This document shows positions 1 to 64,000 of a stretch of 64,000 bases of DNA, one piece after another (position 1 is the stretch's first letter; each line of letters begins with the position of its first letter). The translations under genes were made by a program, and so were the position numbers. This DNA comes from Candidatus Gottesmanbacteria bacterium UBA6580 (GTDB lineage: Bacteria > Patescibacteriota > Microgenomatia > UBA10105 > UBA927), in the NCBI GenBank assembly GCA_002433895.1, contig DJJA01000003.1, forward strand, positions 511,745-575,744, in the 5' to 3' direction. The notes beneath the pieces are model-generated. The model was not told where the DNA came from. It did not search any database and was given only the letters and a program-made list of their open reading frames with translations.

Positions 1-1024
1 ACCAGACAACAAGGTGGTTTTCTTTTTTCCGTAATCCGCTGATAAGCCAAACGACTCCGAGAAGAAGAAGCGGCGCTTCAATTGGGTGCAGATTGCCATA
101 GCCCTCTATGTTGTGTGCTCGGTTACCTCCACCTTTGATAAAGAGAAATTCGGGTCCGTATGACCGGAGATAATTCTCAAATACCGTACGTACGGCGTAC
201 GTGATGCGGTTATGGGTAAGCCGTGCTGCGAGTGAATGAGGATCACGGTGCTCCTGTCTCGGAAGTTCAATGTGGTTATGTATAACCGTCGGGTCACCGA
301 AAATGCTTATGCCGCTTATTTTCGTGTGATCAGCAGAGAAAGTGACTGAAAGGATTGTTAGCGTCAGTATCACGCCGATGCCCAACGCTATCCAGAAGCG
401 CGGTATTTTTATAAGCTGCTGACGGTAAAAAAATAGTATGCCGGCAAGGAGCAGCGACGTGAATATGTGATTACCGTGGTAGGTATAATACGTCAGCGAA
501 AAGATCACGGCTGCTGCAATAAGGAAGGCGAGCGATTTCTTTTTTACCGCCAACAGATACCAGATAGTGCCGAGAATAGTAAATAGTACTGCGGTAATTG
601 CTTCGGACTCGACCCGCGAGATATGGATATGCCAGGGCATGATCGCGAGCACGAGTGATGAAAGCAGCGCGATAGTTTCTGAAGCAAACAGGAGCTTTGC
701 GAGATAGTAAATTGCAGCGACACTCATAATGCCCGCGATTGCTGAAGGTAACCGTACTGCCAGCTCAGAAAGGCCGAATATTTTTACAAAAGGTATGGTG
801 GTATAGATATACAGCGGTAGCTTCCAGTCTCCGAACGATTCGAAAGACAGTGGCAATAATCTTCCATACTCGTCCTTACCGGTGGTTGCGAGTGAGTATG
901 CAGTGTACCCTATGCTTGCTTCATCGCGGTTGATCCCCGGAGGAACGTTATCGAGATTATAGAGCCGTAATGCCGCCGCAAGAAGGATGATAATGATAAA
1001 AAAATACCGGAAGTTAATTTTCAT
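1..1024 (-). CDS. PMT_2/ArnT-like GT39-family membrane glycosyltransferase, paralog B0 (5' complete, 3' end runs off window)
   Basis: Hand translation of the minus strand from ATG at 1024 gives MKINFRYFFIIIILLAAALRLYNLDNVPPGINRDEASIGYTAYSLATTGKDEYGRLLP...AVRLPSAIAGI...LFIKGGGNRAHNIEGYG, collinear with the three + strand paralogs at 7719-12792. It is absent from the ORF track because no stop codon falls inside the window. Confidence 0.7.
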   Translation of the reverse strand, partial: MKINFRYFFIIIILLAAALRLYNLDNVPPGINRDEASIGYTAYSLATTGKDEYGRLLPLSFESFGDWKLPLYIYTTIPFVKIFGLSELAVRLPSAIAGIMSVAAIYYLAKLLFASETIALLSSLVLAIMPWHIHISRVESEAITAVLFTILGTIWYLLAVKKKSLAFLIAAAVIFSLTYYTYHGNHIFTSLLLAGILFFYRQQLIKIPRFWIALGIGVILTLTILSVTFSADHTKISGISIFGDPTVIHNHIELPRQEHRDPHSLAARLTHNRITYAVRTVFENYLRSYGPEFLFIKGGGNRAHNIEGYGNLHPIEAPLLLLGVVWLISGLRKKENHLVVW

Positions 1025-3251
1025 TTCTTTTTTGGCGAATAATGACGAGTAGTATGATTGTCGCACTGAGGCTCATGATACTCAAGAGCGCGCCATAGGT
1101 CGCACTTTTCGGATGATATTTTATGGTTACCGTGTGAGTACCCGCGGGTACTTCAAGTTTTTTCAGTTGTTCTTCAGTGGGGTAAATTGGTGTTGGTGTG
1201 GTATCTACCCACGCGAGCCAGCCCGGATAATATGTATCGGTGAGCACCAGGGTGCCGGCAGATGAGCTTTCCGTCCGCAAGGTGATATGTTCCGGCGCGT
1301 AAGCACTGATTGTGACTTTCCCTGTATTTAGCGAGGCGCGTGGTTGAGCACGTGTATTTTCATATACTATCCAGTCCTCATATGAATATACTTTCCGGAA
1401 AATATTCGGAGGATATACACCTTCATCACTCCCATTTTCTACGCGATCCAGTATGTAACGTACACTAAGAGCGTTTAATACTTTTTGTTTGTGTATATCC
1501 GACAGCCCCCCGTCACCAAATCCGGATACGATGGCGGCATCAGATCGTGTTGTGTTGTCAAACGCAGCAAGCGGTTTTCCCGTTTTATATGAATAGAGGA
1601 ATTGTCCGTACGATTTAGGATAAAGCGGGTCGTAGCCTTCAGGAGAAAACAGGTGATACTGGGAAGCAAAGTTCGCGGCAATATTTGCGGTGCCATACCC
1701 CCAGTACCGGTCTGGCGCTTGGCTTTTGAGATACGTGATGATCGGGTGGTCAGGAAAAACGAGTGATCGTTCCGCGAATGGGTTAAAACGGTTAAAAAAG
1801 ATAAATAAGTCTAATGTGTGAACAACAAGAAGTATGATAATGGCGTGCGCCCGCCATTTGGGAAGCGCTATGGCAATCCAGAATAATGAAAGTGTCGCGG
1901 CTGAAATAATTGCGCCGTAGAAAAGAGCCCGTATTGCTATCGGGGCATGGATAGTAAGCTCGGGAATAACCGGAAGCTTAGTAAATATTACAAGAAAAAC
2001 AAAGAGCCCGATTACTTCCAGTGTTCTCCGTACAAGTTTTTTAATTGAGTGTGTATCGGACATCCAATAATCGAGTCCCAATCCGCACATCATGGCAAAA
2101 GAAAAAGCAAAAAGAAACGACATGAGTGTTGGGCTGCTGGAGGTAAAAATCGGCACCGGTATCCGGTAGAGTACAGCAGTAATTGGGTGCGCGGTAATAA
2201 GGAGCAGGGTAATAGCGGTGGCTCCGGTAAACCATTTTGTGATGGTGTCTTTCCGGCGGAATGCGGAAAGCGAAAAAAACAACGGTACTAGCCCTATGGT
2301 TGTAACTTTGCCCACAAACGTATCTGTCGGCCAATAGGTGCGGGTGGCTGGGTTGCCAAAAAAATTAGGAAAAGGGAGGGAGAGTAATTGGAGCGGCTGG
2401 ATAAGTATTTTTGTAAATAAATTAGTGGCATCATGCGGCGAGCGTGCAGCATGCATGATGAGTTCAATGCCCGGGAGCAATTGAATACCGGAAATGCCTA
2501 TGCCGAGTGCCGTACATCCCCCTATATATGTCCACATTGTTCGCTTCGCGCGGAACCCGGTGTATATAAGGGTAAATACCAGCGTATACCCATAGACTTG
2601 CGGGTGGCCCGCAAGTAGTGACGCAGCATGCGCGAAGGTGAGTAATCCCAAGCTTGATACCTGTGGTTTTTCCCGGAGGTGCTCGATACAAAAAAGCATG
2701 AGTGGCAACCAGAGAATAACGTGTCCTATGGTGTTGTATTCGAGCCATACCGCCATAAAACCGGAAAACCCGAAAGACAGCGCAGCAAGGAGTGCACCCT
2801 GATACTGCATACCAATTTTCCGGCTATATATGTAGGTAAAAAGCGTGGCGAGGAATGGCTGCAAGATGATCAATAGAGTCCACGCGTCGATTTGAGAGAG
2901 CCACAGGTACAGCGCTCCTAGTGGGTACAGCGCGGCGCTCTGAAAATTAGCAAGGAGCGGAGCTCCTGAAAAATTATACGGGTTCCATAGGGGCAGCTTT
3001 CCTTGACGTAATGCTTCGACCACAAGCGTTTTCCAGGGATACATTTGCCGGATAACATCGGGATATTGTGCTTTATTCGGAACACCCCCTTCGCCATAAC
3101 CGAGATAGGAGGTGGACCGCCACGGCTGGAAATCGCTGACTAATATATCAGCAGGAATAGGTACTTTTCCGGAAAAAATTGTTTGATAAAAGAATAGCGA
3201 TATGATGCCAAAAAGAAAAATGAAGATGAATAGCCACTCGTTTTTTTTCAT
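1014..3251 (-). CDS. YfhO-family polytopic membrane protein (GT-C-type glycosyltransferase candidate) with a C-terminal extracytoplasmic domain
   Basis: Long ORF with many predicted TM helices. N-terminal region reads ...YPWKTLVVEALRQGKLPLWNPYNFSGAPLLANFQSAALYPL, typical of YfhO proteins. C-terminal YYPGW motif, a final TM helix and a basic tail. Start placed at the internal ATG 3251 (MKKNEWLF...), which forms an ATGA overlap with the upstream gene stop. Confidence 0.65.
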   Translation of the reverse strand: MKKNEWLFIFIFLFGIISLFFYQTIFSGKVPIPADILVSDFQPWRSTSYLGYGEGGVPNKAQYPDVIRQMYPWKTLVVEALRQGKLPLWNPYNFSGAPLLANFQSAALYPLGALYLWLSQIDAWTLLIILQPFLATLFTYIYSRKIGMQYQGALLAALSFGFSGFMAVWLEYNTIGHVILWLPLMLFCIEHLREKPQVSSLGLLTFAHAASLLAGHPQVYGYTLVFTLIYTGFRAKRTMWTYIGGCTALGIGISGIQLLPGIELIMHAARSPHDATNLFTKILIQPLQLLSLPFPNFFGNPATRTYWPTDTFVGKVTTIGLVPLFFSLSAFRRKDTITKWFTGATAITLLLITAHPITAVLYRIPVPIFTSSSPTLMSFLFAFSFAMMCGLGLDYWMSDTHSIKKLVRRTLEVIGLFVFLVIFTKLPVIPELTIHAPIAIRALFYGAIISAATLSLFWIAIALPKWRAHAIIILLVVHTLDLFIFFNRFNPFAERSLVFPDHPIITYLKSQAPDRYWGYGTANIAANFASQYHLFSPEGYDPLYPKSYGQFLYSYKTGKPLAAFDNTTRSDAAIVSGFGDGGLSDIHKQKVLNALSVRYILDRVENGSDEGVYPPNIFRKVYSYEDWIVYENTRAQPRASLNTGKVTISAYAPEHITLRTESSSAGTLVLTDTYYPGWLAWVDTTPTPIYPTEEQLKKLEVPAGTHTVTIKYHPKSATYGALLSIMSLSATIILLVIIRQKRNEN

Positions 3252-4882
3252 GCGTGTTGTTTTTTGCGGCTCGACAGGAGCAGTAATCCCATCATGCATA
3301 TAAACGAAAGTGCAGTCACCCCTTCTGCTATCTGGCGGATAGCAGACTCCTCCCAGACAACCCGTATCGTATGTGTCCCTTTTGGCAGACTAAATGTGAT
3401 AAGCCCCCGCCAATTTTGATCCTGAAATTCAATCGGAAGTTTTTGTCCGTTGTTATACACTCTCCAGCCGGGAAAGTACTGCGTACGGTCAACAACCTGC
3501 ACATCTGTTTCCGCATGTACGGTAAATGTATGTATTGTTCCTTTTTTGGTTGCATCGGTAATCGTGCCCGTACCGCTCGCGAGCTCAAACCGCTTTTCTG
3601 GATATGAGCCAGCGGGTCCAGCCGACCAGATAATATCCGTCTCTCCGAAGTATGTGGTGTTTAACGGATAATCCCAAAAATATTTTTCATCTACCCGGTC
3701 AAAGCCAAGCGGGGGCCGGAAATACACGCCGGCACTTATGATGCTGATAAGTGAAATGCTTATAAGCCAGGGAAATGGTATTTTTTTCCAAACGAGTACC
3801 ACCCCCCCTAAAAGTGCCAGTGATAGCGTGGTGAGATTGAGGAGTCTCCAGGGAAATTGAAACATGCGAAGTATAGGGATATTAGCCCAGAAAAATTCTG
3901 AAACGGGTTGCATAACAAAAAGGGCGGCAAGCGTCAGAAATATGGCAAACCATGCCAACTTGTTATGACTGCCTGTTATTTTTTTCTTGTACAGGAGATA
4001 TGCGGCAGAAATGAGGGCAATAACCTGCATCAGCCCTAAAGTTACTGCGATCCCGCCGGTGAGGAGTGTGCCGTTGTTTGTGAAGTTGGGTATGAAGAAA
4101 TTCTGAAGCGGCGCAAAGTGGGATTTATACATATCTTTCATAAATAGATCGCCATAGGTGAATTTCCGCTCAATAAGCGCCGGGAGCCAATAAAATGCGG
4201 AAAGTCCAAGCCCTAATGCGAGGGCACTAAGCGCAGTTATTCGTTTTTTATTGTCGGGGGCAAATACAAGCGCAAAAAGTACCGCAACGCCGAAAAAGAC
4301 GAGGCTGACGGCATTATGCGACACGATAAGGAGCAGTGTAGCGACACTGATAAGTACCACATTTTGCGCTGTATTCTTTTCTTCAAAGCTCCGTGTAATT
4401 GTGTAGAGCACCAATGGAATAAACGCGAGTGCGTACCCTTCTGCCATGTCGCCGCGGACGACCAGATCAACCAGATGAAACGGCGCAAACTGGTAAAGCA
4501 TGGTGGCAACAAACGCTCTGCCTTCATGTTTAAACAACCGCAGGGAAAATAGGTACATGAACACGCCTGATAATAGAAAACTAATAAGGAGCGCGAATTT
4601 AAATGAAAAAACCAAACCGCCTCCGAGAGCCACCGGTATGGAAGTTACCAGATAGGGTATATGGTAAATAAAATTGAAAAGCGGCATGCCATAGCCATAG
4701 TTAAGCTCCCCAGCCCACCGGGGAAGCAGTTGGCCTTCTGTGAGGGCCTTGTAATATGCGGCGATACGCGCAAAATGAACCGGACTGTCATGCGTGTGGG
4801 GAGCAAGCGGGGTCGTGAGTATGCTAATAAACGGCAGGAATGAAATTGCAATAACGAGGATATAATGTTTTAATGATTTCAT
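3248..4882 (-). CDS. YfhO-like/GT-C membrane protein, paralog A1 (HD-x3-H / PRW...GYG.P family)
   Basis: 544-aa ORF. N-terminal motifs HTHDSPVHFARIAAY and LPRWAGELNYGYGMPLFNFIYHIPY are shared with the ORFs at 14345 and 18424. Multi-TM core, then a C-terminal soluble domain with YFPGWRVYNNG and a final TM helix. Confidence 0.6.
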   Translation of the reverse strand: MKSLKHYILVIAISFLPFISILTTPLAPHTHDSPVHFARIAAYYKALTEGQLLPRWAGELNYGYGMPLFNFIYHIPYLVTSIPVALGGGLVFSFKFALLISFLLSGVFMYLFSLRLFKHEGRAFVATMLYQFAPFHLVDLVVRGDMAEGYALAFIPLVLYTITRSFEEKNTAQNVVLISVATLLLIVSHNAVSLVFFGVAVLFALVFAPDNKKRITALSALALGLGLSAFYWLPALIERKFTYGDLFMKDMYKSHFAPLQNFFIPNFTNNGTLLTGGIAVTLGLMQVIALISAAYLLYKKKITGSHNKLAWFAIFLTLAALFVMQPVSEFFWANIPILRMFQFPWRLLNLTTLSLALLGGVVLVWKKIPFPWLISISLISIISAGVYFRPPLGFDRVDEKYFWDYPLNTTYFGETDIIWSAGPAGSYPEKRFELASGTGTITDATKKGTIHTFTVHAETDVQVVDRTQYFPGWRVYNNGQKLPIEFQDQNWRGLITFSLPKGTHTIRVVWEESAIRQIAEGVTALSFICMMGLLLLSSRKKQHA

Positions 4883-4928: not shown

Positions 4929-6419
4929 ATGAGAGTTCGGTACATATTGGACTGGTGGAAGCTCGGAATTATTTTTGTCGCCACCCTGCTACGGGTCTAT
5001 AGGCTGGAGACGCTCACGGAGTTTTTGGGCGATCAGGGGAGAACGATGCTTATTATGCGGGATTTTGTCTCGCAAGGAGTTGTGCCGCTTGCAGGCCCCA
5101 CCACACTCTCCGGACATCATTTAGGCCCGATATTCTATTATTTATTATTACCCGGCTATCTATTGACTGGTGAGCCTGTGGGGGTTTCATTGTGGATGGC
5201 GGTGCTTGGGGTAGTTGCCGTCTTTTTGATCTATGAAGCGGTTCGTCAGATGTTTGATATAGGTACGGCCCGGGTTGTTGCGTTGCTTTGGGCAGTATCT
5301 CCGGTATTGGTACGGGCTGACCGGATAATTTGGGAACCAAACCTCGTTCCGATGTTCGGAGTTTTATTTATCTACTTATTATATAAAGCCTACGGGTCAT
5401 GGCGGCCAAGTGCGTGGTTTGGGTTAGGGGTGACGGTTGGGGTATTGGTCCAATTGCATTATCCAAATATATTTTTTGTGGGTCTTACGGGGCTGGTGCT
5501 GTTGGTACCGCTTGTTAGGAAAAGCCGATCGTTGCCCGAGGTAGTACGGGTAACGCTCTCGTGGGTAGCCGGGTTTAGCATCATACTGCTCCCATTTTTG
5601 TGGCATCAGTATACCGTGGGGTTTAAAGATGTGATAGGTATAGCGACGGTTATTGGTGAGGGTGTTGGGGTGACGCTGGGGAAACGGGCGATGGTGTCGG
5701 TCGGCTTGGATTATGCGTATAGAGTATTAGGAAGGGCCGTGCCATGGATGAGTAGGGAACCGGCAGCACTACTTTTGGGTTTGTGGGCTCTTTTCGTCTG
5801 TTTCAGGCCTACGGTGAGAAATATATTTTTTTCCGTATGGTTTGCCGGAGGAGTAGCAGCGATGCTCCGGTATAGCGGTGTCGTGCACGACCATTATTTA
5901 TTTTTTATCGTACCGGTACCGTTTCTTATGCTTGCATCCGTTGTTCACAGCGCGAAACCGGGGGTATGGCGGAATATTCTGTATACTGCAGTAATCATTG
6001 TGTGTTTCGTTCAATTATCACTAACGGATATTTTTCGCACAGGATCCGCGGATATTCCAAGAGTAAAACATGCGGTGGCACTCATGAGTGATATCGTAAA
6101 AGATAAAGACTTTTCATTTACTCTGGTTAATACGGCTTCCTATTCGGATCTGCATTACCGATACTATATGAAGGTTGCGGGTATCCACCCAAAGCCTGCG
6201 GTTGCGGGCGGTTATGCCCGGTTTGTTATCGTATGTGACCGTCCTGATTGCCCAACAGTTTCGGAGCTATCCCGGAGAGAGCAGTTGCCTATACTATGCT
6301 ATGAAGAGCATTGTTCGGAATATTATCCGAGCATCCCGCTATCTTCACAGTGGATATATGCGAAAGACATTCCGGTTACCAATAATTTGGGAAGGCTGTA
6401 TATATTTGACGCCCGGTAA
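4929..6419 (+). CDS. Polytopic membrane protein, GT-C-type glycosyltransferase candidate (ArnT/PMT-like)
   Basis: 496 aa, about 11 hydrophobic helices, with an early loop motif LGDQGRTMLIMRDF. Transcribed divergently from the A1 gene across a 46-bp gap. Confidence 0.45.
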   Translation: MRVRYILDWWKLGIIFVATLLRVYRLETLTEFLGDQGRTMLIMRDFVSQGVVPLAGPTTLSGHHLGPIFYYLLLPGYLLTGEPVGVSLWMAVLGVVAVFLIYEAVRQMFDIGTARVVALLWAVSPVLVRADRIIWEPNLVPMFGVLFIYLLYKAYGSWRPSAWFGLGVTVGVLVQLHYPNIFFVGLTGLVLLVPLVRKSRSLPEVVRVTLSWVAGFSIILLPFLWHQYTVGFKDVIGIATVIGEGVGVTLGKRAMVSVGLDYAYRVLGRAVPWMSREPAALLLGLWALFVCFRPTVRNIFFSVWFAGGVAAMLRYSGVVHDHYLFFIVPVPFLMLASVVHSAKPGVWRNILYTAVIIVCFVQLSLTDIFRTGSADIPRVKHAVALMSDIVKDKDFSFTLVNTASYSDLHYRYYMKVAGIHPKPAVAGGYARFVIVCDRPDCPTVSELSRREQLPILCYEEHCSEYYPSIPLSSQWIYAKDIPVTNNLGRLYIFDAR

Positions 6420-9341: not shown

Positions 9342-9462
9342 TATGCCGGGTAGTAGAATTTCGACACGATTTCGTTTCGTTGCCGGAATATAGACTGCCC
9401 AAATTTATATTGTATTGTTGATAAAATGAAGGGATATTGAAATCTTGTCATCGTAAAAAGCA

Positions 9463-11148: not shown

Positions 11149-11151
11149 TTT

Positions 11152-25654: not shown

Positions 25655-25669
25655 TTACATCATAAAATA

Positions 25670-28101: not shown

Positions 28102-28106
28102 CGCCT

Positions 28107-44533: not shown

Positions 44534-44558
44534 GGTGAATAGTATAGCAGTTTGTATG

Positions 44559-46912: not shown

Positions 46913-46961
46913 GTACGTGCAGCACGGAATGAATATATAGTCGTTGTGTTACAATTTATAT

Positions 46962-50845: not shown

Positions 50846-51444
50846 GAATAGTTATTGATTTTTGGGTATATCTTGCAACCCTTACAGGGTTTGTCCCCAG
50901 TCATACGGTACGGTTATTTTTATACCGGTGGTTGTTCGGTGTCCGCATCGGCAGGAATACCTCTATTCACTGGCGGGCACAATTTAATAATCCGGCGGGT
51001 GTCACAATCGGACACAACACCATTATCGGCAACGATGCATTTTTAGATGGGCGGTTCAAGCGTGATGGAACAAATAAAAAAGAAGGCAAAATTGCGAGTT
51101 ACCTTAAACAGTTTTTTGGTGGCGGCTCGCGGCCGCTTACCATTGGCAACAATGTTTCCATTGCCGGAGAGGTGCGGATATACACGATGGAGCATGATAT
51201 CGACAGCGCGACATTTGCAGAGATTGGCGCTCCGGTGGTTATTGAAGATTATGTGGTTATCGGCACCCGGGTGACTATCTTACCCGGTGTGACGATTGGC
51301 CGTGGTGCAGTGGTTGCTTCGGGAGCGGTCGTTACCAAAAATGTGGCGCCGTACGCAGTGATGGGAGGTGTACCGGCAGTATTTATTCGTGAGCGGAGTC
51401 ATGATTTGAAATATACATTAAAGTTTGCCAGATTATTTCAATAA
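50842..51444 (+). CDS. Hexapeptide-repeat acetyltransferase (WcaF/maltose O-acetyltransferase-like)
   Basis: Contains IGHNTIIGNDAFLDG...VSIAGEVRIYTMEHD...VVIGTRVTILPGVTIGRGAVVASGAVVTKNVAPYAVMGGVPAVFIRER. Confidence 0.75.
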   Translation: MRIVIDFWVYLATLTGFVPSHTVRLFLYRWLFGVRIGRNTSIHWRAQFNNPAGVTIGHNTIIGNDAFLDGRFKRDGTNKKEGKIASYLKQFFGGGSRPLTIGNNVSIAGEVRIYTMEHDIDSATFAEIGAPVVIEDYVVIGTRVTILPGVTIGRGAVVASGAVVTKNVAPYAVMGGVPAVFIRERSHDLKYTLKFARLFQ

Positions 51445-51462
51445 TGTCCCCAATAATTTTCT

Positions 51463-58189: not shown

Positions 58190-59072
58190 ATCAGGCACAA
58201 CTATTGATCTATCGGTTGTTATTTTAAATTTTAATACCCGCGATCTCACCCGTGCGTGTCTGTTGACGGTGCTAAACTCACGGCTCGGTAAATACCGAAT
58301 GGAAGTGATTGTGTGTGATAACGGCTCGACCGACGGAAGCCAGGAAATGATCGAGAATGATTTCCCCGGCGTTAATTTCATCAAAAATGGGAAAAATGTC
58401 GGATTTGCGGCGGGTAATAATCCGGGTATCAGGCGCGCCAAAGGAAGATATGTGTTGCTCCTCAACACCGATACGGAAGTGCCACCGGAAACGTTTTCCG
58501 CCATGATTGCGTTTATGGATGATCATAAAGACGCTGGGGCGGCAACCTGTAAGATATTGCTACCGGGCGGCTCGATGGATGCGGCGTGCCATCGGGGATT
58601 TCCGACGCCATGGGTCGCGTTTACCTATGTGACAAAACTGGAGAAACTGTTTCCGAAAACCAGACTATTCGGAGAATATCACCAGGGGTACAAGGATTTT
58701 TCGAAGGTGCATGAGGTCGACTGCATTGTCGGCGCGTTTTTTATGGTCAGACGCGCGGTTATAGAGGATGTCGGGTTGCTCGATGAAGATTATTTCATGT
58801 ATGGGGAAGATATCGATTGGGCATATAGAATCCGGTCAAAAGGCTGGAAAATTTTATTTAATCCTGAGGTGACCATCCTACATAAAAAGAAGCAAAGCGG
58901 CCGGGCAAACAACCGTAAGGACCGGAGAATTACCACTGAGATATATTTTCATCAGTACAATTGGTTATTTTATACCAAAAATTACGCGAAGAAATATGGC
59001 TTTCTGCTTACTTTTTTGGTGAATAGCTTTTATACATGCCGGATATTTTTGCTCAAGAAATTCGGTATTTGA
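58182..59072 (+). CDS. GT2-family glycosyltransferase
   Basis: Opens LSVVILNFNTRDLTRACLLTVLNS...VIVCDNGSTDGS and carries LLLNTDTEV. Start moved from the ORF-track 58035 to the internal ATG 58182 (MNKSGTTIDLSVV), giving an 8-nt overlap with the upstream stop. Confidence 0.8.
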   Translation: MNKSGTTIDLSVVILNFNTRDLTRACLLTVLNSRLGKYRMEVIVCDNGSTDGSQEMIENDFPGVNFIKNGKNVGFAAGNNPGIRRAKGRYVLLLNTDTEVPPETFSAMIAFMDDHKDAGAATCKILLPGGSMDAACHRGFPTPWVAFTYVTKLEKLFPKTRLFGEYHQGYKDFSKVHEVDCIVGAFFMVRRAVIEDVGLLDEDYFMYGEDIDWAYRIRSKGWKILFNPEVTILHKKKQSGRANNRKDRRITTEIYFHQYNWLFYTKNYAKKYGFLLTFLVNSFYTCRIFLLKKFGI

Positions 59073-59073
59073 T

Positions 59074-60189
59074 ATGACCATAGGTATAGATGCACGATTG
59101 ATTGATGAAACCGGAGTAGGGAGGTATATCAAAAACCTTATTTCCCAGCTCTCGGCTATTGATACCACAAATTCGTATGTGGTTTTTTTAACAGAGAAAG
59201 CGTTTGGTTCGTTTAAGGCACCTAATGCACGCTGGAAAAAAGTTGAGGCGGGGGTTCGGTGGCATACTGTTAAAGAACAGTTCGTCATGCCCAGGCTATT
59301 TGCCCGTGAACATTGTGATCTTGTACATATCCCTTATCACAATCCGCCGATACTGTATTCCGGATCAATGGTGCTTACTATTCATGACCTTATCATTTTA
59401 CATTTTGATACAGGGAACGCGACCACGCTTCCTATTCCCCTCTATAAACTCAAGCGGTTAGGATATTTTATCGAATTGTGGATCGGGTTACGGAAAGCGA
59501 AACGTATTATCGCCGTATCCGAAGCTACAAAGCAGGAGATTGTTGACCATTTTGGTATTACACCAGAGAAAATAATAGTAACGTATGAAGGGGTGGATGA
59601 GCATATTCTTGCCGCGGGCAGTGAAAAATCGATGGGAGCGATCCAGAAAATTATAGACGGACAGTATGTGTTGTATGTGGGTAACGCGTATCCCCACAAA
59701 AATTTAGATACGCTGCTCAAGGCGTTTGTGTTGCTCCGTAAAAAAAACCCGTCAGAGAGTATAAAGTTGGTGCTGGTCGGTAACGACAACTTTTTTTATC
59801 GTCGTCTGAAAACGACAGCCGCCACACTGGGACTTGATGACGAGGTGGTGTTTTTTGGCCAGGCAAATGACGCTGAACTTTTCCATTTGTATACGCATGC
59901 CCGGGCCTTTGTGTTTCCATCGCTTATGGAAGGGTTTGGGTTACCCGCCCTGGAGGCGCTTTCACTTGGGTGTCCGGTTATTGTGTCCGATATCCCGGTT
60001 TTCCATGAAATATTGGGTGATGCCGCGCGTTACGTCGATCCCCGCAACCCCGCTCTGATCGCCGGGGCAATTTTGGATACAGAACCGTATCATAATACAC
60101 GGCGTGCTCAATTACCCCGGGTGCCGTATAATTGGCGCTCAATGGCAGAACGTACATTAGCTCTCTATGAAGGTAGCATTCGTTTATGA
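59074..60189 (+). CDS. GT4-family glycosyltransferase
   Basis: Opens MTIGIDARLIDETGVGRY and contains EGFGLPALEALSLGCPVIVSDIPVFHEILGDAARYVDP. Confidence 0.85.
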   Translation: MTIGIDARLIDETGVGRYIKNLISQLSAIDTTNSYVVFLTEKAFGSFKAPNARWKKVEAGVRWHTVKEQFVMPRLFAREHCDLVHIPYHNPPILYSGSMVLTIHDLIILHFDTGNATTLPIPLYKLKRLGYFIELWIGLRKAKRIIAVSEATKQEIVDHFGITPEKIIVTYEGVDEHILAAGSEKSMGAIQKIIDGQYVLYVGNAYPHKNLDTLLKAFVLLRKKNPSESIKLVLVGNDNFFYRRLKTTAATLGLDDEVVFFGQANDAELFHLYTHARAFVFPSLMEGFGLPALEALSLGCPVIVSDIPVFHEILGDAARYVDPRNPALIAGAILDTEPYHNTRRAQLPRVPYNWRSMAERTLALYEGSIRL

Positions 60190-61291
60190 TCGTGTGAACA
60201 AATGGGGAGGTGCTGAAAGGGTGCTCCTTGCCCTACATAAAATCTGGCCTGACGCGCCACTGTTTACTGCGGTGTATGACAAGAAACGCGCGGCATGGGC
60301 AGATGTGTTTGAGGTACACCCTTCTTTCTTGCAGCGCATTCCCGGCGCGTCTTTTGCGCATGAATCATTGCCTGGTCTCACTCCTATGGCGTTCGAGGCA
60401 TTTATGTTTGATGAATACGATGTGGTGATTTCCGTTACGAGCGCTGAGGCCAAAAATATTATTACTAAACCCCAAACTCTGCATATCTGTTATTGCCTCA
60501 CACCTACACGGTATTTGTGGAGCGGGTTTGACCAGTACCTGAAGCAGCCAGGATTAGGCAAACTAAGCGCTATCGCGGGATGGGGTTTAAAAACATTTGC
60601 TCCTATGCTTCGGCGGTGGGATGTCGTAGCAGCAAGCAGACCTGATTTTTTTATCGCGATTTCTCAACGGGTAAAGGAACGGATCAGAAAGTATTACGGT
60701 CGCGATGTCGTAGCGGTTGTCTACCCGCCAGTTGATACGGGGAGATTTGTGTCACGCGGATCCGCAACTCGCGCAAACGGCGATTACTTTTTGACCGTAT
60801 CAAGACTGGTGAGTTATAAGAGGCTGGATATAATCATCCAGGCATTTAACGCGTTATCGCTTCCATTGATAATTATCGGGGACGGACGACAGAAACGGGA
60901 ACTCAAAAAAATGGCCGGTCCGTCAATCCGGTTTATCGATCATCATTTGACAGATTCTGAACTTGTCCGATATTATGAGGGATGTCGCGCGTTTGTGTAT
61001 GCCGCTGATGAAGACTTCGGACTTGCCGCCGCGGAAGCACAAGCGTTGGGGGTTCCGGTCATAGCATACAGTCAAAGCGGAGTTGCAGAGGTTGTAAAAG
61101 ATCGTGTATCGGGCGTATTATTTGATCAGCAGACAGTTACGTCACTGAAAACGGCAGTAGGTAAATTTTTATCGTTGCGGTTTTCGAAAAAGGTTTGTCG
61201 CGCTCAGGTAGAAGCAATGAGTGAAGCACATTTTCGTAAAAGTATAAGCGATATAGTCCATTCTTTGCACCAAAAAAATAAACATATATGA
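60167..61291 (+). CDS. GT4-family glycosyltransferase
   Basis: Opens MKVAFVYDRVNKWGGAERV and contains AADEDFGLAAAEAQALGVPVIAYSQSG. Confidence 0.8.
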   Translation: MKVAFVYDRVNKWGGAERVLLALHKIWPDAPLFTAVYDKKRAAWADVFEVHPSFLQRIPGASFAHESLPGLTPMAFEAFMFDEYDVVISVTSAEAKNIITKPQTLHICYCLTPTRYLWSGFDQYLKQPGLGKLSAIAGWGLKTFAPMLRRWDVVAASRPDFFIAISQRVKERIRKYYGRDVVAVVYPPVDTGRFVSRGSATRANGDYFLTVSRLVSYKRLDIIIQAFNALSLPLIIIGDGRQKRELKKMAGPSIRFIDHHLTDSELVRYYEGCRAFVYAADEDFGLAAAEAQALGVPVIAYSQSGVAEVVKDRVSGVLFDQQTVTSLKTAVGKFLSLRFSKKVCRAQVEAMSEAHFRKSISDIVHSLHQKNKHI

Positions 61292-62373
61292 AAGCAATTA
61301 TTTTTGCAGGAGGAGTAGGAACTCGATTGTGGCCACTTTCCCGTAAAAAATCTCCCAAGCAGTTTGAAAAAATTATCGGTGATAAATCCACGCTGCAATT
61401 AGCGGCAGAGCGTTTGCAACCAGATTTTTCGTGGGAAGATGTGTATGTGTCCACTGGCGCGCGCTATGTACCGATCGTACAGCAGCAGTTATCAAAGTTA
61501 CCCCCGCGTCAGGTTATTGGTGAGCCGGAGGTTCGTGATGTCGGTCCCGCAGTAGGACTCATGACAGCTATTTTGGCAAAAGAATCACCTGAAGAGCCGA
61601 TGGTAATTCTCTGGAGTGATCACTTGGTTAAAAAGCAGGAATTGTTCCGCCGGCTGCTTCGCGTTGCCGGAGAGGTAGTGAAGAAAGATCCGGAAAAGAT
61701 TGTCTTTGTGGCACAAAAACCCCGGTTTGCCAGCGAAAATTTGGGATGGATATCATACGGATCCGAAGTGACGGAACAAGATGGTGTTACATTTAACAAC
61801 TTCGTGGACTTCCAATACCGCCCGGACGCCAAAACGGCAAAAGCATATTTTGAGAGCGGACATCACGCGTGGAATTTAGGGTACTTTGTGACCACTCCCG
61901 CGTTTTTATGGAAGCAATATCAGGCGTTTGCTCCGAATTTAGCGACCAGCATCATGAAAATCGCTGATCAATGGGGCACGCCACAGTTTTCGAAAGTATT
62001 GGAAGAAGTATATCCGACACTGGAAAAAATAAGCTTTGATAACGCGATACTTGAAAAATTGGATCCCAGCGCCGCGCTGGTTGTATCAGAAAATATTGAG
62101 TGGAGCGATATCGGCGCATGGGAAGCGCTCAAGGAGGCACTCGAGGAAACAAATGATAAAAACGTGACGCAGGGGAAAGTGATGCTTACGGATACCAACG
62201 ACAGTCTGGTGTATAACTACAACGATAAGCAATTGGTCGTCACCATAGATATGGATGAAGTTCTGGTGGTAAACACTGATGATGTGCTGCTTGTTTGTCG
62301 CAAATCTTCGGTTCCTAAAGTGAAAAAACTGGTCGAATCTATGCACGGTACGGAAAACGATCATTTAACCTAG
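61288..62373 (+). CDS. manC: Mannose-1-phosphate guanylyltransferase (sugar nucleotidyltransferase)
   Basis: Opens MKAIIFAGGVGTRLWPLSRKKSPKQF, the GG-x-GTRLWPLSR...PKQF signature of ManC/CpsB-type enzymes. 361 aa. Confidence 0.75.
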   Translation: MKAIIFAGGVGTRLWPLSRKKSPKQFEKIIGDKSTLQLAAERLQPDFSWEDVYVSTGARYVPIVQQQLSKLPPRQVIGEPEVRDVGPAVGLMTAILAKESPEEPMVILWSDHLVKKQELFRRLLRVAGEVVKKDPEKIVFVAQKPRFASENLGWISYGSEVTEQDGVTFNNFVDFQYRPDAKTAKAYFESGHHAWNLGYFVTTPAFLWKQYQAFAPNLATSIMKIADQWGTPQFSKVLEEVYPTLEKISFDNAILEKLDPSAALVVSENIEWSDIGAWEALKEALEETNDKNVTQGKVMLTDTNDSLVYNYNDKQLVVTIDMDEVLVVNTDDVLLVCRKSSVPKVKKLVESMHGTENDHLT

Positions 62374-62378
62374 GGCCG

Positions 62379-63023
62379 GTGCGCGTTATGTATACTTTTT
62401 TAAAACGGCTAATAGACATCGTCGGCAGCATAGTGCTGGGTCTGATATTTCTCCCCATAAGTATTTTGGTCGCAGCGGCGATCACATTAGATAGTCCTGG
62501 TCCCGTGTTTGCTGATACACCACAGCGGGTTGGTAAAAACGGGAAACCCTTTAAACTTTTTAAATTCAGATCAATGATCGTTAATGCCCATATTAAGCTC
62601 CGTACAGATCCTAAGCTCAAGAAGCTCTATCAGGAATACAAAAGGAACAGTTATAAACTTCGGGAAGATCCGAGAGTGACAATGGTGGGGCGGTTTATCC
62701 GTAAACATTCGTTAGACGAAATTCCCCAGTTTTTAAATGTGTTAAAGGGAGATATGAGCCTCGTGGGGCCCCGGCCGTATTACGCGGATGAGTTGGTCGA
62801 GCAACAGCGCAAATATCCGCACACCAAGGAACTCGTAAAGATTGTGTTATCTGCGCGTCCCGGGATAACCGGTTGGTGGCAGGTATCCGGACGGAGTGAA
62901 GTAAATTTTGATAAACGGATAAAACTTGATGCTGACTATGTGCTGAAACGGAGTTTATTTTTGGATATCTATATATTGTTAAAAAGCCCCTGGGCCATGA
63001 TCTCCGGCAGGGGAGCAGTATAG
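62379..63023 (+). CDS. Initiating polyprenyl-phosphate sugar-1-phosphate transferase (small PglC/WbaP-C-type bacterial sugar transferase)
   Basis: N-terminal TM IVGSIVLGLIFLPISILVAAAITL, then PGPVFADTPQRVGKNGKPFKLFKFRSM...DEIPQFLNVLKGDMSLVGPRP. Confidence 0.8.
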   Translation: MRVMYTFLKRLIDIVGSIVLGLIFLPISILVAAAITLDSPGPVFADTPQRVGKNGKPFKLFKFRSMIVNAHIKLRTDPKLKKLYQEYKRNSYKLREDPRVTMVGRFIRKHSLDEIPQFLNVLKGDMSLVGPRPYYADELVEQQRKYPHTKELVKIVLSARPGITGWWQVSGRSEVNFDKRIKLDADYVLKRSLFLDIYILLKSPWAMISGRGAV

Positions 63024-63084: not shown

Positions 63085-63108
63085 ACCCCTACCCCCGACA
63101 ATAATTCC

Positions 63109-64000
63109 ATGGTTGAAGAACTGAAAAAGATTACTGTTGATACAAAACCGGATACGGTTATGACGGCACCCAAGAAAAAATTTAAGGCAAAATTCGTGCT
63201 TATTCCGCTCGGGATATTACTTGCGGTTATCGCAATAATCGGTGTTATGTTGTTACCGCTCCGCGGGGTGATGGCAAGAGCAAAGGATGTTGCGGCTATC
63301 GGCAGGCAAACCGCTGACGCACTCAAAAATCAGGATCTCGCTGCTACCAAAGATGGTCTATCCAAGACCCGTATTGAATTTACCAAGTTATCAGAAGAAT
63401 ACAACAAAATAACCGGACTCCGGTTTGTCCCGGTTTTGGGGGCATACGTAAACGACGGGTCACATGGGATTAAAGCCGGTTTTGCCGCACTGGATGCGGC
63501 TGACCGCGCGATAGAAGCACTGGAACCTAACGCGGACTTGTTGGGATTTACCGGCGGTGGCAAATTTGTGCAGGGTTCAGCTGATGAGCGCATACAGGTT
63601 GCCGTAAAGACTATGAAAGCACTGACCCCCAAGATAAACGAAATGGCGGGTTCGATTGATACGATGCGGAAAGAGCTGGATTATATAGATCCAAACCGGT
63701 ACCCCACCAAAATCGGTAAAACGGTTGTGCGCGCGAGACTGCAGGAGATGAAAGACGTGATCGACAATGCAGCGAATTTGTTTGTAAATGCACAGCCGCT
63801 GCTCGTCAACTTGCCGGCAATGCTTGGAGAGCCGGAGATGCGACGGTACCTCGTGTTGTTCCAAAATGACAAAGAATTACGTTCAACCGGAGGGTTTCTT
63901 ACCGCATACGCACAGTTCCGGTTAGATAAAGGCAAGATGATCCTCGAAAAATCCTCCGATATTTATGATCTCGATAACGCGTTGAAAAAGAAATTCCCGG
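63109..64000 (+). CDS. DUF4012-like envelope protein (N-terminal part; continues past the window end)
   Basis: ATG at 63109 opens a frame with no stop before 64000: MVEELKK...KFVLIPLGILLAVIAIIGVMLL (single TM) ...RRYLVLFQNDKELRSTGGFLTAYAQ. As I recall, the LxQNxxELRxTGG motif is characteristic of DUF4012 proteins, which often sit next to polysaccharide loci. Confidence 0.45.
   Translation, partial: MVEELKKITVDTKPDTVMTAPKKKFKAKFVLIPLGILLAVIAIIGVMLLPLRGVMARAKDVAAIGRQTADALKNQDLAATKDGLSKTRIEFTKLSEEYNKITGLRFVPVLGAYVNDGSHGIKAGFAALDAADRAIEALEPNADLLGFTGGGKFVQGSADERIQVAVKTMKALTPKINEMAGSIDTMRKELDYIDPNRYPTKIGKTVVRARLQEMKDVIDNAANLFVNAQPLLVNLPAMLGEPEMRRYLVLFQNDKELRSTGGFLTAYAQFRLDKGKMILEKSSDIYDLDNALKKKFP

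What the first reader, a model, noticed from the sequence alone, without database searches (positions are those of the whole stretch)
1..64000. Supercluster of stacked three-component (GT2 synthase + flippase + GT-C transferase) extracytoplasmic glycosylation modules
About 18 GT-C-like polytopic membrane proteins, 7 GT2 DPM1/GtrB/ArnC-like polyprenyl-P-sugar synthases (one with the DADLEYSP signature) and a Wzx-like flippase sit in one locus. They are joined by 9 GT4 enzymes, 5 methyltransferases, 6 SDR enzymes, 2 acetyltransferases, ManC and an initiating phosphoglycosyltransferase. The established CsbB/YfhO (lipoteichoic acid GlcNAc decoration), GtlA/GtlB and GtrA/B/C systems pair one GT2 with one GT-C. 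Here the pattern seems multiplied several-fold, implying a heavily and combinatorially decorated surface glycan or glycoprotein. This density of GT-C paralogs in 64 kb is highly unusual. The acceptor (polysaccharide, teichoic-acid-like polymer, S-layer or pilin protein) is not identifiable in the window.
Basis: partly seen in the sequence, partly recalled or inferred. Interest (0 to 1): 0.8.

Follow-up and report, generated by a model that had tools for sequence, protein, structure and literature searches.

The report
Giant GT-C-rich surface glycan locus
A tiny-genome CPR bacterium (Gottesmanbacteria, about 1.2 Mb) devotes at least 64 kb, probably 85 kb, to one surface-sugar locus containing 18 membrane glycosyltransferases of the GT-C type, apparently fed by only two lipid-sugar synthases and one flippase, and part of this locus is conserved across hundreds of related uncultured species.

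Summary
The window holds 18 proteins with a GT-C domain: 10 pass Pfam thresholds and 8 rest on paralogy, profile comparison or predicted structure. It also holds 7 GT2, 9 GT4-like, 5 methyltransferases, 6 SDRs (one a true GalE), 2 O-acetyltransferases, ManC, a Wzx-type flippase and an initiating phosphoglycosyltransferase.

Just two GT2s (g15, which carries DADLEYSP, and g17) resemble polyprenyl-phosphate-sugar synthases; they flank the Wzx gene. The other five are ordinary cytoplasmic GT-A enzymes. So this is not a stack of 1:1:1 modules. It looks like a hub of two donors and one flippase serving 18 GT-Cs, built onto a PGT/Wzx/WaaL-type pathway.

The organism is a Gottesmanbacteria (Patescibacteria) with a 1.13-1.23 Mb genome.

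- **Conserved core:** the right-hand 16 kb (g39-g50 plus DUF4012) is syntenic in 79 fetched loci, and its marker gene was found in at least 584 species genomes. It includes a 1063-aa WaaL-like + GT-C fusion protein.
- **GT-C array:** the left-hand array is syntenic in a relative with 65% protein identity and is under purifying selection (dN/dS about 0.1).
- **New GT-C families:** two Pfam-less families (g31/g32b and g33/g43C) are shown to be GT-C.
- **Unknown:** the acceptor and the sugars.

Verdict: a new variant of a known kind; interest 0.65.

The parts
2..1024 (-). g00: N-terminal 341 aa of a 544-aa PMT/PMT_2-type GT-C; the rest lies left of the window
   Evidence: Pfam PMT_2 43 bits and PMT 40 bits. 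The full gene is seen in L007. 'RDEAS' motif follows TM1.
1014..3251 (-). g01: YfhO-family GT-C, 745 aa
   Evidence: Pfam YfhO 70.5 bits. The exact protein occurs on 16 contigs.
3248..4882 (-). g02: PTPS_related/AftD-like GT-C
   Evidence: Pfam PTPS_related 60.5 bits and GT-C_AftD E 5e-5. This family links to the g31/g32b superfamily by hhalign at 97.3%.
4929..6419 (+). g03: PMT_2-type GT-C
   Evidence: Pfam PMT_2 36.2 bits.
6463..7722 (+). g04: GT87-type GT-C (PimE-like family)
   Evidence: Pfam GT87 27.2 bits against a cut-off of 25.
7719..12792 (+). g05, g06, g07: three tandem PMT/PMT_2-type GT-C paralogues, related to g00
   Evidence: Pfam. Mutual phmmer E 1e-51 to 1e-100. The profile hits ArnT 5ezm at E 1e-5. 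'WDEAS'-type motif follows TM1.
12789..14348 (+). g08: divergent PMT_2-type GT-C
   Evidence: No Pfam hit itself, but 22 of 36 homologues hit PMT_2. hhalign 99.1% to the window's PMT_2 paralogues.
14345..16003 (+). g09: PTPS_related/YfhO-like GT-C, paralogue of g02
   Evidence: phmmer E 1e-79 to g02. Weak YfhO hit.
15985..16761 (+). g10: cytoplasmic GT2, GmaR/SunS-like; not a polyprenyl-P-sugar synthase
   Evidence: PDB best match is GmaR, E 1.5e-15 over residues 8-197, then SunS.
16758..17279 (+). g11: DUF5667 membrane-anchored protein
   Evidence: Pfam DUF5667 30.8 bits.
17276..18427 (+). g12: MptA/MptB-family GT-C
   Evidence: Precomputed Pfam PF26314 hit on the identical 383-aa product.
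18424..19962 (+). g13: PTPS_related-like GT-C, paralogue of g02 and g09
   Evidence: phmmer E 2e-52 and 4e-47.
19967..21037 (+). g14: GT4
   Evidence: Pfam Glycos_transf_1 112 bits.
21034..21729 (+). g15: DPM1/AglJ-like polyprenyl-P-sugar synthase candidate, 231 aa, no TM helix, DADLEYSP motif
   Evidence: NCBIfam gives full-length matches to AglJ, ArnC, PpgS and DPhHxTase. PDB 5mlz E 1.5e-18 over residues 4-206, then ArnC. Motif seen. No nonsynonymous change against the L002 and L005 strains.
21729..22988 (+). g16: Wzx-type (MOP) flippase, 12 TM helices, lying between the two synthase candidates
   Evidence: Pfam Polysacc_synt_3 35.7 bits and Polysacc_synt 28.4 bits.
22969..23772 (+). g17: second DPM1/PpgS/ArnC-like synthase candidate, 267 aa
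   Evidence: NCBIfam PpgS match over residues 11-224. PDB 5mlz E 6e-9 over residues 6-209.
23784..36002 (+). g18-g30: sugar-modification and cytoplasmic assembly segment. Contains SDRs g18, g24, g27, g28; methyltransferases g19, g22, g25, g29; GT4s g20, g26; GT-C g21 (26782-28101, PMT_2); GT2 g23; O-acetyltransferase g30
   Evidence: Pfam and NCBIfam. In 97%-identical strains, g23-g25 is replaced by another cassette.
36003..38225 (+). g31: Pfam-less GT-C of AftD/YfhO architecture, with invariant GGDD at residues 38-41
38222..42232 (+). g32: three-module fusion. Module a (aa 10-320) is an unknown membrane protein with a beta-rich outer domain; module b (aa 350-1000) is a GT-C of the g31 family; module c (aa 1166-1331) is an SGNH/GDSL esterase
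   Evidence: The modules are separate genes in relatives. hhalign of module b to the g31 family gives 99.9%, E 2e-31. Pfam Lipase_GDSL_2 72 bits. Module a has no Pfam hit.
42244..43914 (+). g33: Pfam-less GT-C, with invariant QQDEW at residues 32-36
   Evidence: hhalign 99.2%, E 4e-19, to the C-terminal half of g43. 4 of 29 homologues weakly hit PMT_2.
43919..47921 (.). g34 methyltransferase (-), g35 GT2 (-), g36 GT4 (+), g37 SDR (+, likely start 46962)
   Evidence: Pfam. g35's best PDB matches are TarS-like enzymes.
47925..48146 (+). Unannotated 73-aa ORF with 3 hydrophobic helices, at the head of the conserved core
   Evidence: Found in the only long gap. tblastn finds it in 47 related loci at 41-81% identity. 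It lies directly before g39 in most of them and directly after the GtrB-type GT2 in 12.
48151..49137 (+). g38: UDP-glucose 4-epimerase GalE
   Evidence: NCBIfam TIGR01179 393.6 bits against a cut-off of 262.
49134..52335 (+). Conserved core, first part: g39 (half-size GT4-like, about 195 aa), g40 GT4, g41 O-acetyltransferase, g42 GT2
   Evidence: Pfam. Same gene order in 79 related loci. g39 is conserved as a short protein of about 180 aa.
52310..55501 (+). g43: 1063-aa fusion of a WaaL-like (Wzy_C) ligase/polymerase domain (about aa 1-545) and a GT-C domain (about aa 550-1063, invariant D585 D586)
55498..56946 (+). g44: PMT_2-type GT-C; follows g43 in 71 of the 79 related loci
   Evidence: Pfam PMT_2 34.3 bits. 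Synteny.
57008..63023 (+). Conserved core, second part: g45 GT4, g46 GT2 (likely start 58182), g47 GT4, g48 GT4, g49 ManC, g50 initiating phosphoglycosyltransferase (62388-63023)
   Evidence: Pfam. NCBIfam: EPS_sugtrans 252.6 bits and GMP_PMI 229 bits, both below the cut-offs for the longer forms. Synteny.
63109..64000 (+). N-terminal part of a 655-aa DUF4012 protein; right-hand end of the locus
   Evidence: L009 gene calls: DUF4012, then RecO, a tRNA synthetase and the dcw cluster. DUF4012 follows the PGT in 48 of 49 related loci.

Best explanation
The window is most of one cell-envelope glycan locus, at least 85 kb long, in a Gottesmanbacteria (class Microgenomatia, Patescibacteria/CPR) whose genome is about 1.2 Mb. 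It appears to work in two layers.

Layer 1 is a core conserved across the class: the small 3-TM protein, g39-g50 and DUF4012.
- The phosphoglycosyltransferase g50 primes a polyprenyl phosphate.
- GT4 and GT2 enzymes extend the chain on the cytoplasmic face from nucleotide sugars (GDP-mannose from ManC, UDP-galactose from GalE). O-acetyl and O-methyl groups are added.
- The lipid-linked glycan is flipped across the membrane. The WaaL-like domain of g43 then ligates or polymerises it onto an unknown acceptor.

Layer 2 acts outside the membrane.
- Two soluble DPM1-like GT2s (g15, g17) load sugars onto polyprenyl phosphate.
- The Wzx-type protein g16, encoded between them, or another flippase exposes these donors on the outer face.
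- Eighteen GT-C enzymes then use them to extend and branch the glycan. These comprise eight PMT_2-type (GT39/83-like), two GT87/MptA_B, six YfhO/PTPS_related/AftD-like, and the g33/g43C pair. Each presumably has its own acceptor and linkage specificity.

This is hub-and-spoke logic: few lipid donors, many GT-Cs. The closest parallel is mycobacterial lipomannan/LAM/arabinogalactan assembly, not a set of stacked 1:1:1 Gtr-type modules.

Shown: gene families, folds, motifs, synteny and purifying selection. Inferred: order of steps, identity of the sugars, which flippase does what, and the acceptor.
For: - **Organism and genome size:**
- **GT-C identity of all 18 proteins:**. Each has an acidic motif just after TM1.
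- **Only g15 and g17 are synthase-like**, and they flank the Wzx gene.
- **Layer-1 parts:** PGT, ManC and GalE; WaaL fold of the g43 N-terminal half.
- **Class-wide synteny of the core:**
- **Linkage in relatives:** a canonical GtrB-type GT2 lies next to the g32b-type GT-C and the small 3-TM protein.
- **The GT-C array is maintained:** it is syntenic at 65% and 41% protein identity and has dN/dS of about 0.1 with no stop codons.
- **Precedents in PMC8035078:** one donor synthase can serve two GT-Cs, one flippase can serve three systems, and a soluble GT-A can work with a small membrane protein and a Wzx-type flippase.
Against: - No acceptor, sugar or linkage has been identified.
- g16 could simply be the flippase for the repeat unit. 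In that case the flippase for the polyprenyl-P-sugars is unassigned; no GtrA-type protein was found.
- Further synthases may be encoded elsewhere in the genome, which would change the 2:18 ratio.
- Some GT-Cs may use polyprenyl-diphosphate oligosaccharides, as STT3 and PglB do, rather than monophosphate sugars.
- Five GT-C assignments (g08, g09, g13, g32b, g33) rest on profile comparison or paralogy, not on a model of that protein itself.
- The WaaL-like domain is below the Pfam Wzy_C cut-off (15 bits), and parts of its model have low confidence.
Confidence: 0.6

Rival explanations
1. This is stacked independent three-component modules. Each GT-C has its own GT2 lipid-sugar synthase, so several separate decorations are made from separate donors.
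For: There are 7 GT2 genes in the window. Some lie next to GT-C genes: g09-g10, g21/g23, g42-g43. In relatives a GtrB-type GT2 is adjacent to a GT-C.
Against: Five of the seven GT2s match the synthase models only over the nucleotide-binding half. Their best matches are TarS, chondroitin synthase, GalT1, GmaR/SunS and rhamnosyltransferase types. None of the seven GT2s has the paired C-terminal TM helices seen in the relatives' GtrB-type enzymes, and only g15 carries the DADL(Q/E)xxP-type motif. Twelve GT-C genes lie together in the g00-g13 array; g10 (GmaR/SunS-like) is the only GT2 among them, and no synthase-like GT2 is present.
Confidence: 0.1
2. This is mainly a protein O-glycosylation machine. 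The PMT-like GT-Cs O-mannosylate secreted proteins (S-layer, pilins, DUF5667 or DUF4012 proteins). The WaaL/Wzy_C-like domain of g43 acts as a PglL/PilO-type oligosaccharyltransferase, and the remaining GT-Cs extend the protein-linked glycans.
For: g00 and g05 pass the Pfam PMT (protein O-mannosyltransferase) cut-off and carry the loop-1 DE motif. ManC is present with DPM1-like synthases. g10 resembles the protein/peptide glycosyltransferases GmaR and SunS and lies next to the DUF5667 gene. From my own knowledge, Wzy_C domains also occur in the O-oligosaccharyltransferases PglL and PilO.
Against: No acceptor protein with Ser/Thr-rich repeats is evident in the window. YfhO, AftD and GT87/Mpt relatives are known from polysaccharide and lipoglycan work, not protein work. 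The g43 N-terminal domain matches WaaL best.
Confidence: 0.2
3. The locus holds two or more unrelated pathways that merely sit side by side. One is a conserved wall-polymer core; the others are lineage-specific systems such as teichoic-acid-like decoration or lipid modification of the ArnT type.
For: The core is conserved across the class, whereas the left-hand array is lineage-restricted. A relative carries an Arn-like gene set (PMT_2, SDR, GT2, deacetylase, formyltransferase) upstream of its g31 homologue. GC drops to 40-41% over g31-g36.
Against: Genes g03-g33 are packed on one strand with overlaps or very short gaps, and the window is 98.5% coding. The only synthase-like GT2s and the only Wzx lie between the array and the rest of the locus. 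The whole region is flanked by housekeeping genes on the right.
Confidence: 0.1

Closest known systems
Mycobacterial/corynebacterial lipomannan-LAM-arabinogalactan assembly (Ppm1 with PimE, MptA, MptB, MptC, AftA-D, EmbA-C and Pmt)
   Same: Many GT-C enzymes are fed by very few polyprenyl-P-sugar donors. The same GT-C families appear here: GT87, MptA_B, AftD-like and PMT. A GDP-mannose supply, GT4 cytoplasmic steps and a DPM1-like GT2 are also present.
   Different: Here everything sits in one locus of a 1.2-Mb genome rather than being dispersed. Initiation is by a PGT and there is a WaaL-like ligase. No decaprenyl-P-arabinose pathway genes occur in the window. Whether the product is anchored to phosphatidylinositol is unknown.
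Three-/multi-component transmembrane glycosylation systems (GtrABC; CsbB/GtcA/YfhO; GtlA/GtlB; GacI/GacJ/GacK/GacL; CsdAB/CD/EF with CflA), reviewed in PMC8035078
   Same: A DPM1/GtrB-like GT-A, a flippase (Wzx-type, as GacK is) and GT-C transferases with an acidic outer-loop motif. The soluble GT-A plus a small 3-TM protein recalls GacI/GacJ. Sharing of a donor or a flippase between GT-Cs has precedent.
   Different: The ratio is 2 synthases : 1 flippase : 18 GT-C instead of pairs. No GtrA-type protein was detected. The GT-Cs probably build much of the glycan rather than adding a single side-chain sugar.
Wzx/Wzy-dependent O-antigen, capsule or secondary wall polysaccharide loci with a WaaL-type ligase
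   Same: PGT, GT4/GT2 assembly enzymes, sugar-modifying SDRs, methyltransferases and acetyltransferases, Wzx, a Wzy_C/WaaL-fold protein, and strain-level cassette replacement.
   Different: The WaaL-like domain is fused to a GT-C domain. The organism is a monoderm-like CPR bacterium without lipid A. No chain-length regulator is recognised. There is an extraordinary number of GT-Cs.
ArnT/ArnC lipid A aminoarabinose pathway
   Same: A PMT_2-type GT-C and an ArnC-like GT2. The window's PMT_2 profile hits ArnT 5ezm. A relative has the formyltransferase and deformylase-like genes as well.
   Different: The window has neither the formyltransferase nor the deacetylase, and no lipid A acceptor is expected.

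Membership tests
GT-C glycosyltransferase superfamily (for the Pfam-less proteins g08, g31, g32b, g33, g43C) | GT-C fold: a polytopic membrane module superposable on PMT, STT3, ArnT or AftD | tested here: met
GT-C glycosyltransferase superfamily (for the Pfam-less proteins g08, g31, g32b, g33, g43C) | Conserved acidic residue or residues in the first extracytoplasmic loop after TM1 | tested here: met
   Invariant GGDD (g31 family), D585 D586 (g43 family), D34 E35 (g33 family) and D24 (g32b family). D53 is nearly invariant in the g08 family. Positions relative to TM1 are shown. Sidedness is inferred from hydropathy only.
Three-/multi-component transmembrane glycosylation system (Gtr, CsbB-YfhO, GacIJKL type) | GT-A (GT2) enzyme of the DPM1/GtrB/ArnC type that makes a polyprenyl-P-sugar | tested here: met
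   Met for g15 and g17 only, and by sequence similarity rather than activity. The other five GT2s do not fit.
Three-/multi-component transmembrane glycosylation system (Gtr, CsbB-YfhO, GacIJKL type) | Dedicated flippase, GtrA-type or Wzx-type | tested here: inconclusive
   The Wzx-type g16 lies between g15 and g17. No GtrA-type hit appeared among ORFs of 150 aa or more. Substrate cannot be tested here.
Three-/multi-component transmembrane glycosylation system (Gtr, CsbB-YfhO, GacIJKL type) | One synthase working with one (or two) GT-C as a functional pair | tested here: not met
   There are 2 synthase-like GT2s against 18 GT-Cs in the window, and no synthase-like GT2 inside the g00-g13 array. 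Only the window and its flanks were examined, not the whole genome.
Wzx/Wzy(WaaL)-dependent lipid-linked glycan pathway | Initiating polyprenyl-phosphate phosphoglycosyltransferase | tested here: met
   g50: EPS_sugtrans 252.6 bits and WbaP-type 237 bits over the catalytic domain, i.e. the short monotopic form, below the cut-offs set for the long forms. Precomputed Bac_transf hit.
Wzx/Wzy(WaaL)-dependent lipid-linked glycan pathway | Wzy polymerase or WaaL ligase | tested here: inconclusive
Protein O-mannosyltransferase (GT39, PMT) | Pfam PMT domain with a loop-1 Asp-Glu motif | tested here: met
   g00 scores 40.4 bits and g05 32.6 bits against a cut-off of 22.7. A DE motif is present in g00 and g05-g07.
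Protein O-mannosyltransferase (GT39, PMT) | Transfer of mannose from polyprenyl-P-mannose to Ser/Thr of proteins | not testable with these tools
   No acceptor protein was identified. The PMT_2 family also includes enzymes that modify lipids and polysaccharides, such as ArnT and GtlB.
Mycobacterial LM/LAM-type GT-C network | GT87/MptA_B GT-Cs together with a PPM synthase and a GDP-mannose supply | tested here: met
   g04 is GT87, g12 is MptA_B_family, g15 and g17 are DPM1-like and ManC is present. This is family-level similarity only.
Mycobacterial LM/LAM-type GT-C network | Phosphatidylinositol anchor with PimA/PimB steps, and a decaprenyl-P-arabinose pathway for the arabinan | not tested
   No UbiA- or DprE-type Pfam hit occurs among the window's ORFs. 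The GT4s were not compared with PimA or PimB.

The most novel reading that the evidence does not exclude
Microgenomatia (Gottesman-, Levy-, Roizman- and Woesebacteria) may build a major, perhaps essential, envelope glycopolymer or glycoprotein coat largely outside the membrane, using a GT-C assembly line analogous to, but independent of, the mycobacterial one. It would be anchored by a WaaL-like + GT-C fusion enzyme conserved across the class, which couples en-bloc ligation to lipid-sugar-dependent glycosylation. In this Gottesmanbacteria lineage the line would have been expanded to more than 20 GT-Cs, occupying about 7% of the genome. That glycan would then be a prime candidate for the surface that mediates attachment to hosts.
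Probability: 0.3. Interest if true: 0.8.

Novelty: new variant of a known kind. Interest (0 to 1): 0.65.

Why it matters
CPR/Patescibacteria are ultra-small bacteria, mostly uncultured, with minimal metabolism. Their cell surface is thought to decide how they attach to and live on other cells, yet the chemistry of their envelope is essentially unknown.

This organism spends at least 5% of a 1.2-Mb genome on one glycan locus (64 kb in the window; about 7% if the 85-kb extent holds). Half of the window encodes GT-C enzymes, all under purifying selection. That argues that an elaborate surface glycan assembled outside the membrane is central to its biology.

The work also gives concrete handles for further study:
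- a core operon conserved across the class, found in at least 584 species;
- a WaaL-like + GT-C fusion protein;
- two GT-C families that Pfam does not yet cover (g31/g32b and g33/g43C);
- a conserved, unannotated 73-aa membrane protein.

In the searchable literature I found no description of any of these. The one relevant paper (PMC6744442) lists Microgenomates-enriched hypothetical membrane families and DUF4012 without assigning them to glycosylation.

Tried and rejected
- **Wrong start codons:** look-ups of g01 and g50 using the longest-ORF starts found nothing. The correct starts are 3251 and 62388.
- **Relaxed Pfam search:** raising the E-value limit to 10 gave nothing usable for g08, g13, g31, g32N or g33.
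- **Profile searches against PDB sequences:** the g31, g43 and g32b family profiles found nothing. Structure comparison was needed instead.
- **Non-significant profile comparisons:** hhalign of the g43 family against the PMT_2 paralogues gave 2.7% probability, the g31 family against the g02 family 1.1%, and the g33 family against the PMT_2 paralogues 10.6%. The links were made only through intermediates: A5 to A1, A5 to A4, and A6 to A2.
- **g32 module a:** no Pfam hit in 8 homologues.
- **GT2 in the left extension:** the 304-aa GT2 beside a YfhO gene looked like a possible CsbB/YfhO pair. It is g42/g46-like, has no TM helix and no DADLQ motif, so I rejected that idea.
- **g39 as a pseudogene:** rejected, because it is a conserved short protein in relatives.
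- **Transporter reading of the polytopic proteins:** rejected.
- **Processive synthase reading of the GT2s:** rejected, because none has the several membrane-spanning helices expected of a synthase-type enzyme.
- **Literature:** searches for Patescibacteria, CPR, Microgenomates or Gottesmanbacteria combined with GT-C, mannosyltransferase, O-antigen ligase or glycosyltransferase found nothing relevant. The WaaL structure paper is not held.

Full report
**What is in the window.** The window is 98.5% coding and holds 51 genes plus one unannotated small ORF. Genes g03-g33 form one tightly packed run of 39 kb on the + strand, and g36-g50 form another of 17 kb.

There are 18 proteins with a GT-C domain:
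- Ten pass Pfam cut-offs: g00, g03, g05, g06, g07, g21 and g44 (PMT_2/PMT), g01 (YfhO), g02 (PTPS_related plus GT-C_AftD) and g04 (GT87).
- g09 and g13 are clear paralogues of g02.
- g12 carries a precomputed MptA_B_family hit.
- g08 is a divergent PMT_2 protein: 22 of 36 homologues hit PMT_2, and hhalign gives 99.1%.
- g32 residues 350-1000 belong to the same superfamily as g31 (hhalign 99.9%) and also link to the g02 family (97.3%).
- g33 is homologous to that C-terminal half (99.2%).

Every one of these proteins has an acidic motif a few residues after its first hydrophobic helix. GT-C genes cover about 32 of the 64 kb.

**The GT2 enzymes.** There are seven GT2 genes, but only two look like polyprenyl-phosphate-sugar synthases.
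- g15 (231 aa, DADLEYSP) aligns over its whole catalytic domain to Pyrococcus dolichol-P-mannose synthase, ArnC, AglJ and PpgS, and g17 (267 aa) does so to the same synthase and to PpgS. Both lack TM helices. They flank g16, the only Wzx-type flippase gene.
- g10 best matches GmaR and SunS, g23 best matches chondroitin synthase, GmaR and GalT1, and g35 best matches TarS-type enzymes.
- g42 and g46 best match EpsD- and rhamnosyltransferase-type models.
- None of the seven has the several membrane-spanning helices expected of a processive synthase.

**Organism and extent of the locus.** Exact copies of the window's proteins occur in NCBI records named 'Patescibacteria group bacterium', and on contigs of 1.13-1.23 Mb. 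The nearest species representative is Candidatus Gottesmanbacteria UBA5942, with 87% identity for g43. Samples include bioreactor sludge.
- On the right, the locus ends with a 655-aa DUF4012 protein. RecO, a tRNA synthetase and the cell-division/wall (dcw) cluster follow.
- On the left, it continues beyond the window. The genes are the rest of g00, a further PMT_2 paralogue (hhalign 100%), two unclassified polytopic proteins, a methyltransferase, a GT2 and a YfhO.
- In a sister genome it continues further, with a GT4, another YfhO-like protein, three GT2s and a 12-TM protein.

The locus is therefore at least 85 kb, about 7% of the genome, with up to 23 GT-C-like proteins.

**Comparative genomics.** The g43 family is 50-60% identical over 1060 residues in more than 1300 proteins. 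It was found in at least 584 species-representative genomes of Gottesman-, Levy-, Roizman- and Woesebacteria.

Across 79 fetched loci the gene order is almost invariant. It runs: [g32b-type GT-C] - [GT2] - small 3-TM protein - half-GT4 - GT4 - acetyltransferase - GT2 - g43 - PMT_2 GT-C - GT4 - GT2 - GT4 - GT4 - ManC - PGT - DUF4012.

In about 25 of these loci the first GT2 is a textbook GtrB/ArnC-type enzyme: about 310 aa, two C-terminal TM helices and a DADLQDxP motif. So the association of a lipid-sugar synthase with GT-Cs is conserved in the core. The g20-g31 segment also has a counterpart in a distant relative, there with Arn-like formyltransferase and deacetylase genes.

The left-hand GT-C array is not a recent accident. 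A relative with 65% protein identity has the same order from YfhO through to the g15- and g16-like genes. A relative with 41% identity keeps three PMT_2 genes followed by a g08 homologue. Against strains with 97.6% nucleotide identity, all 18 genes from g07 to g25 that were compared (g19 was left out) are intact. Their overall dN/dS is 0.09-0.10, and g10, g15 and g17 have no amino-acid change.

What does vary between strains is the sugar-modification segment. g23-g25 is replaced by an unrelated GT2 + SDR cassette in two strains. The g31-g33 region has low GC and divergent alleles.

**How it most likely works.** I read the locus as two layers.
- The conserved core is a lipid-linked glycan pathway. 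The PGT g50 starts the chain. GT4 and GT2 enzymes extend it using GDP-mannose (ManC) and UDP-galactose (GalE, above its NCBIfam cut-off). Acetyl and methyl groups are added. After flipping, the WaaL-like domain of g43 attaches or polymerises the glycan.
- On the outer face, GT-C enzymes extend and branch the glycan using polyprenyl-P-sugars made by g15 and g17 and flipped by g16 or an unidentified flippase.

With 2 synthases and 18 GT-Cs, the logic resembles mycobacterial lipomannan/LAM/arabinogalactan assembly, where a few lipid donors serve many linkage-specific GT-Cs. Several of the same families are present here (GT87, MptA_B, AftD-like, PMT). The review PMC8035078 gives small-scale precedents: a synthase shared by two GT-Cs, a flippase shared by three systems, and a soluble GT-A (GacI) that works with a small 3-TM protein (GacJ) and a Wzx-type flippase (GacK).

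The conserved 73-aa 3-TM ORF at 47925-48146 sits directly after the GtrB-type GT2 in 12 relatives. It is a candidate for such an accessory protein or flippase subunit. Families, folds, motifs, synteny and selection are shown by the data. The order of steps, the sugars, the flippase assignment and the acceptor are inferred.

**Rivals.**
- *Stacked 1:1 modules* is contradicted by the GT2 classification.
- *A protein O-glycosylation machine* (PMT-like enzymes plus a PglL-like use of the Wzy_C domain) is not excluded. It may apply to part of the locus.
- *Several unrelated pathways placed side by side* is possible, but fits poorly with the operon-like packing and the central position of the only donor module.

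**Novelty.** All components belong to known kinds. New as far as I could find in the searchable literature are:
- the scale and clustering of GT-Cs in a 1.2-Mb genome;
- the core operon conserved across the class;
- the WaaL-like + GT-C fusion;
- two GT-C families without Pfam coverage;
- the three-module g32 fusion;
- the conserved small membrane protein.

I rate this a new variant of a known kind, with interest 0.65.

**Limits.**
- I did not examine a whole genome, so the 2:18 ratio and the rarity of this GT-C density are not quantified against other bacteria.
- Only two proteins were modelled.
- The small ORF and g32 module a remain unclassified.

Noticed in passing
window 47925-48146 (+): An unannotated 73-aa ORF with three hydrophobic helices lies in the only long 'intergenic' gap. 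It is conserved (41-81% identity) in 47 related loci, usually directly upstream of g39, and directly downstream of the GtrB-type GT2 in 12 of them. It may be a GacJ-like partner of the soluble synthases or a flippase subunit.
   Followed up: partly
window 28945-31499 (g23 GT2, g24 SDR, g25 methyltransferase); L003 and L004: In two strains that are otherwise about 97% identical, this segment is replaced by a non-homologous GT2 (339 aa) + SDR (310 aa) cassette. The neighbouring g26 drops to 85% and 77% nucleotide identity. This is serotype-like cassette exchange.
   Followed up: partly
window 36000-46000 (g31-g36): GC falls to 40-41%, against 45-49% elsewhere. The exact g31 and g32 alleles occur only on contigs of 38.7 kb or less, whereas alleles of 77% (g31) and about 90% (g32) identity sit in the megabase-scale genomes. 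This may be a second recombining segment.
   Followed up: no
window 38222-42232 (g32): g32 fuses three modules that are separate genes in relatives: an unknown membrane protein with a beta-rich outer domain of about 170 aa (aa 10-320, no Pfam hit), a GT-C (aa 350-1000) and an SGNH/GDSL esterase (aa 1166-1331). Gottesmanbacteria relatives have a fusion of the last two modules only.
   Followed up: partly
window 49134-49721 (g39): This is a stand-alone protein of about 180-195 aa resembling only the N-terminal half of a GT4. It is conserved at the same position in nearly all related loci, so it is not a pseudogene. The likely start is the ATG at 49134, which overlaps the stop codon of g38.
   Followed up: partly
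window 53650-53710 (g43 residues about 447-466): The segment 'LAVDNSYLRMLAEVGxxG' is invariant or nearly so across the family. From memory it resembles the WaaL 'H-x10-G' region, but with Asp in place of the catalytic His. The model has low confidence here (pLDDT below 50 for residues 446-456), and I could not align it to a WaaL sequence.
   Followed up: no
window 15985-17279 (g10, g11): The GT2 g10 best matches GmaR (the Listeria flagellin O-GlcNAc transferase) over nearly its full length, and also the peptide S-glycosyltransferase SunS. It overlaps the start of g11, a DUF5667 membrane-anchored protein. This hints at a possible cytoplasmic protein-glycosylation step.
   Followed up: no
L090:647-5369 (relative GCA_964452165.1): Upstream of its g31 homologue, a relative carries PMT_2, SDR, GT2, Polysacc_deac_1 and Formyl_trans_N genes in a row. 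This set resembles ArnT, ArnA, ArnC and ArnD. The window has methyltransferases in place of the last two.
   Followed up: no
L093:326-9983 (sister genome, 1.17-Mb contig): The locus continues about 20 kb beyond the window's left edge. The extra genes include two more YfhO-type proteins (755 and 779 aa), a GT4, three GT2s and a 483-aa 12-TM protein with no match to any window protein. The last could be a second flippase or a polymerase.
   Followed up: partly
L009:16172-20636: The right flank of the locus lies 3.5 kb from the dcw cluster (MraZ, RsmH, PBP, Mur ligase). The glycan locus therefore sits next to the peptidoglycan synthesis genes.
   Followed up: no
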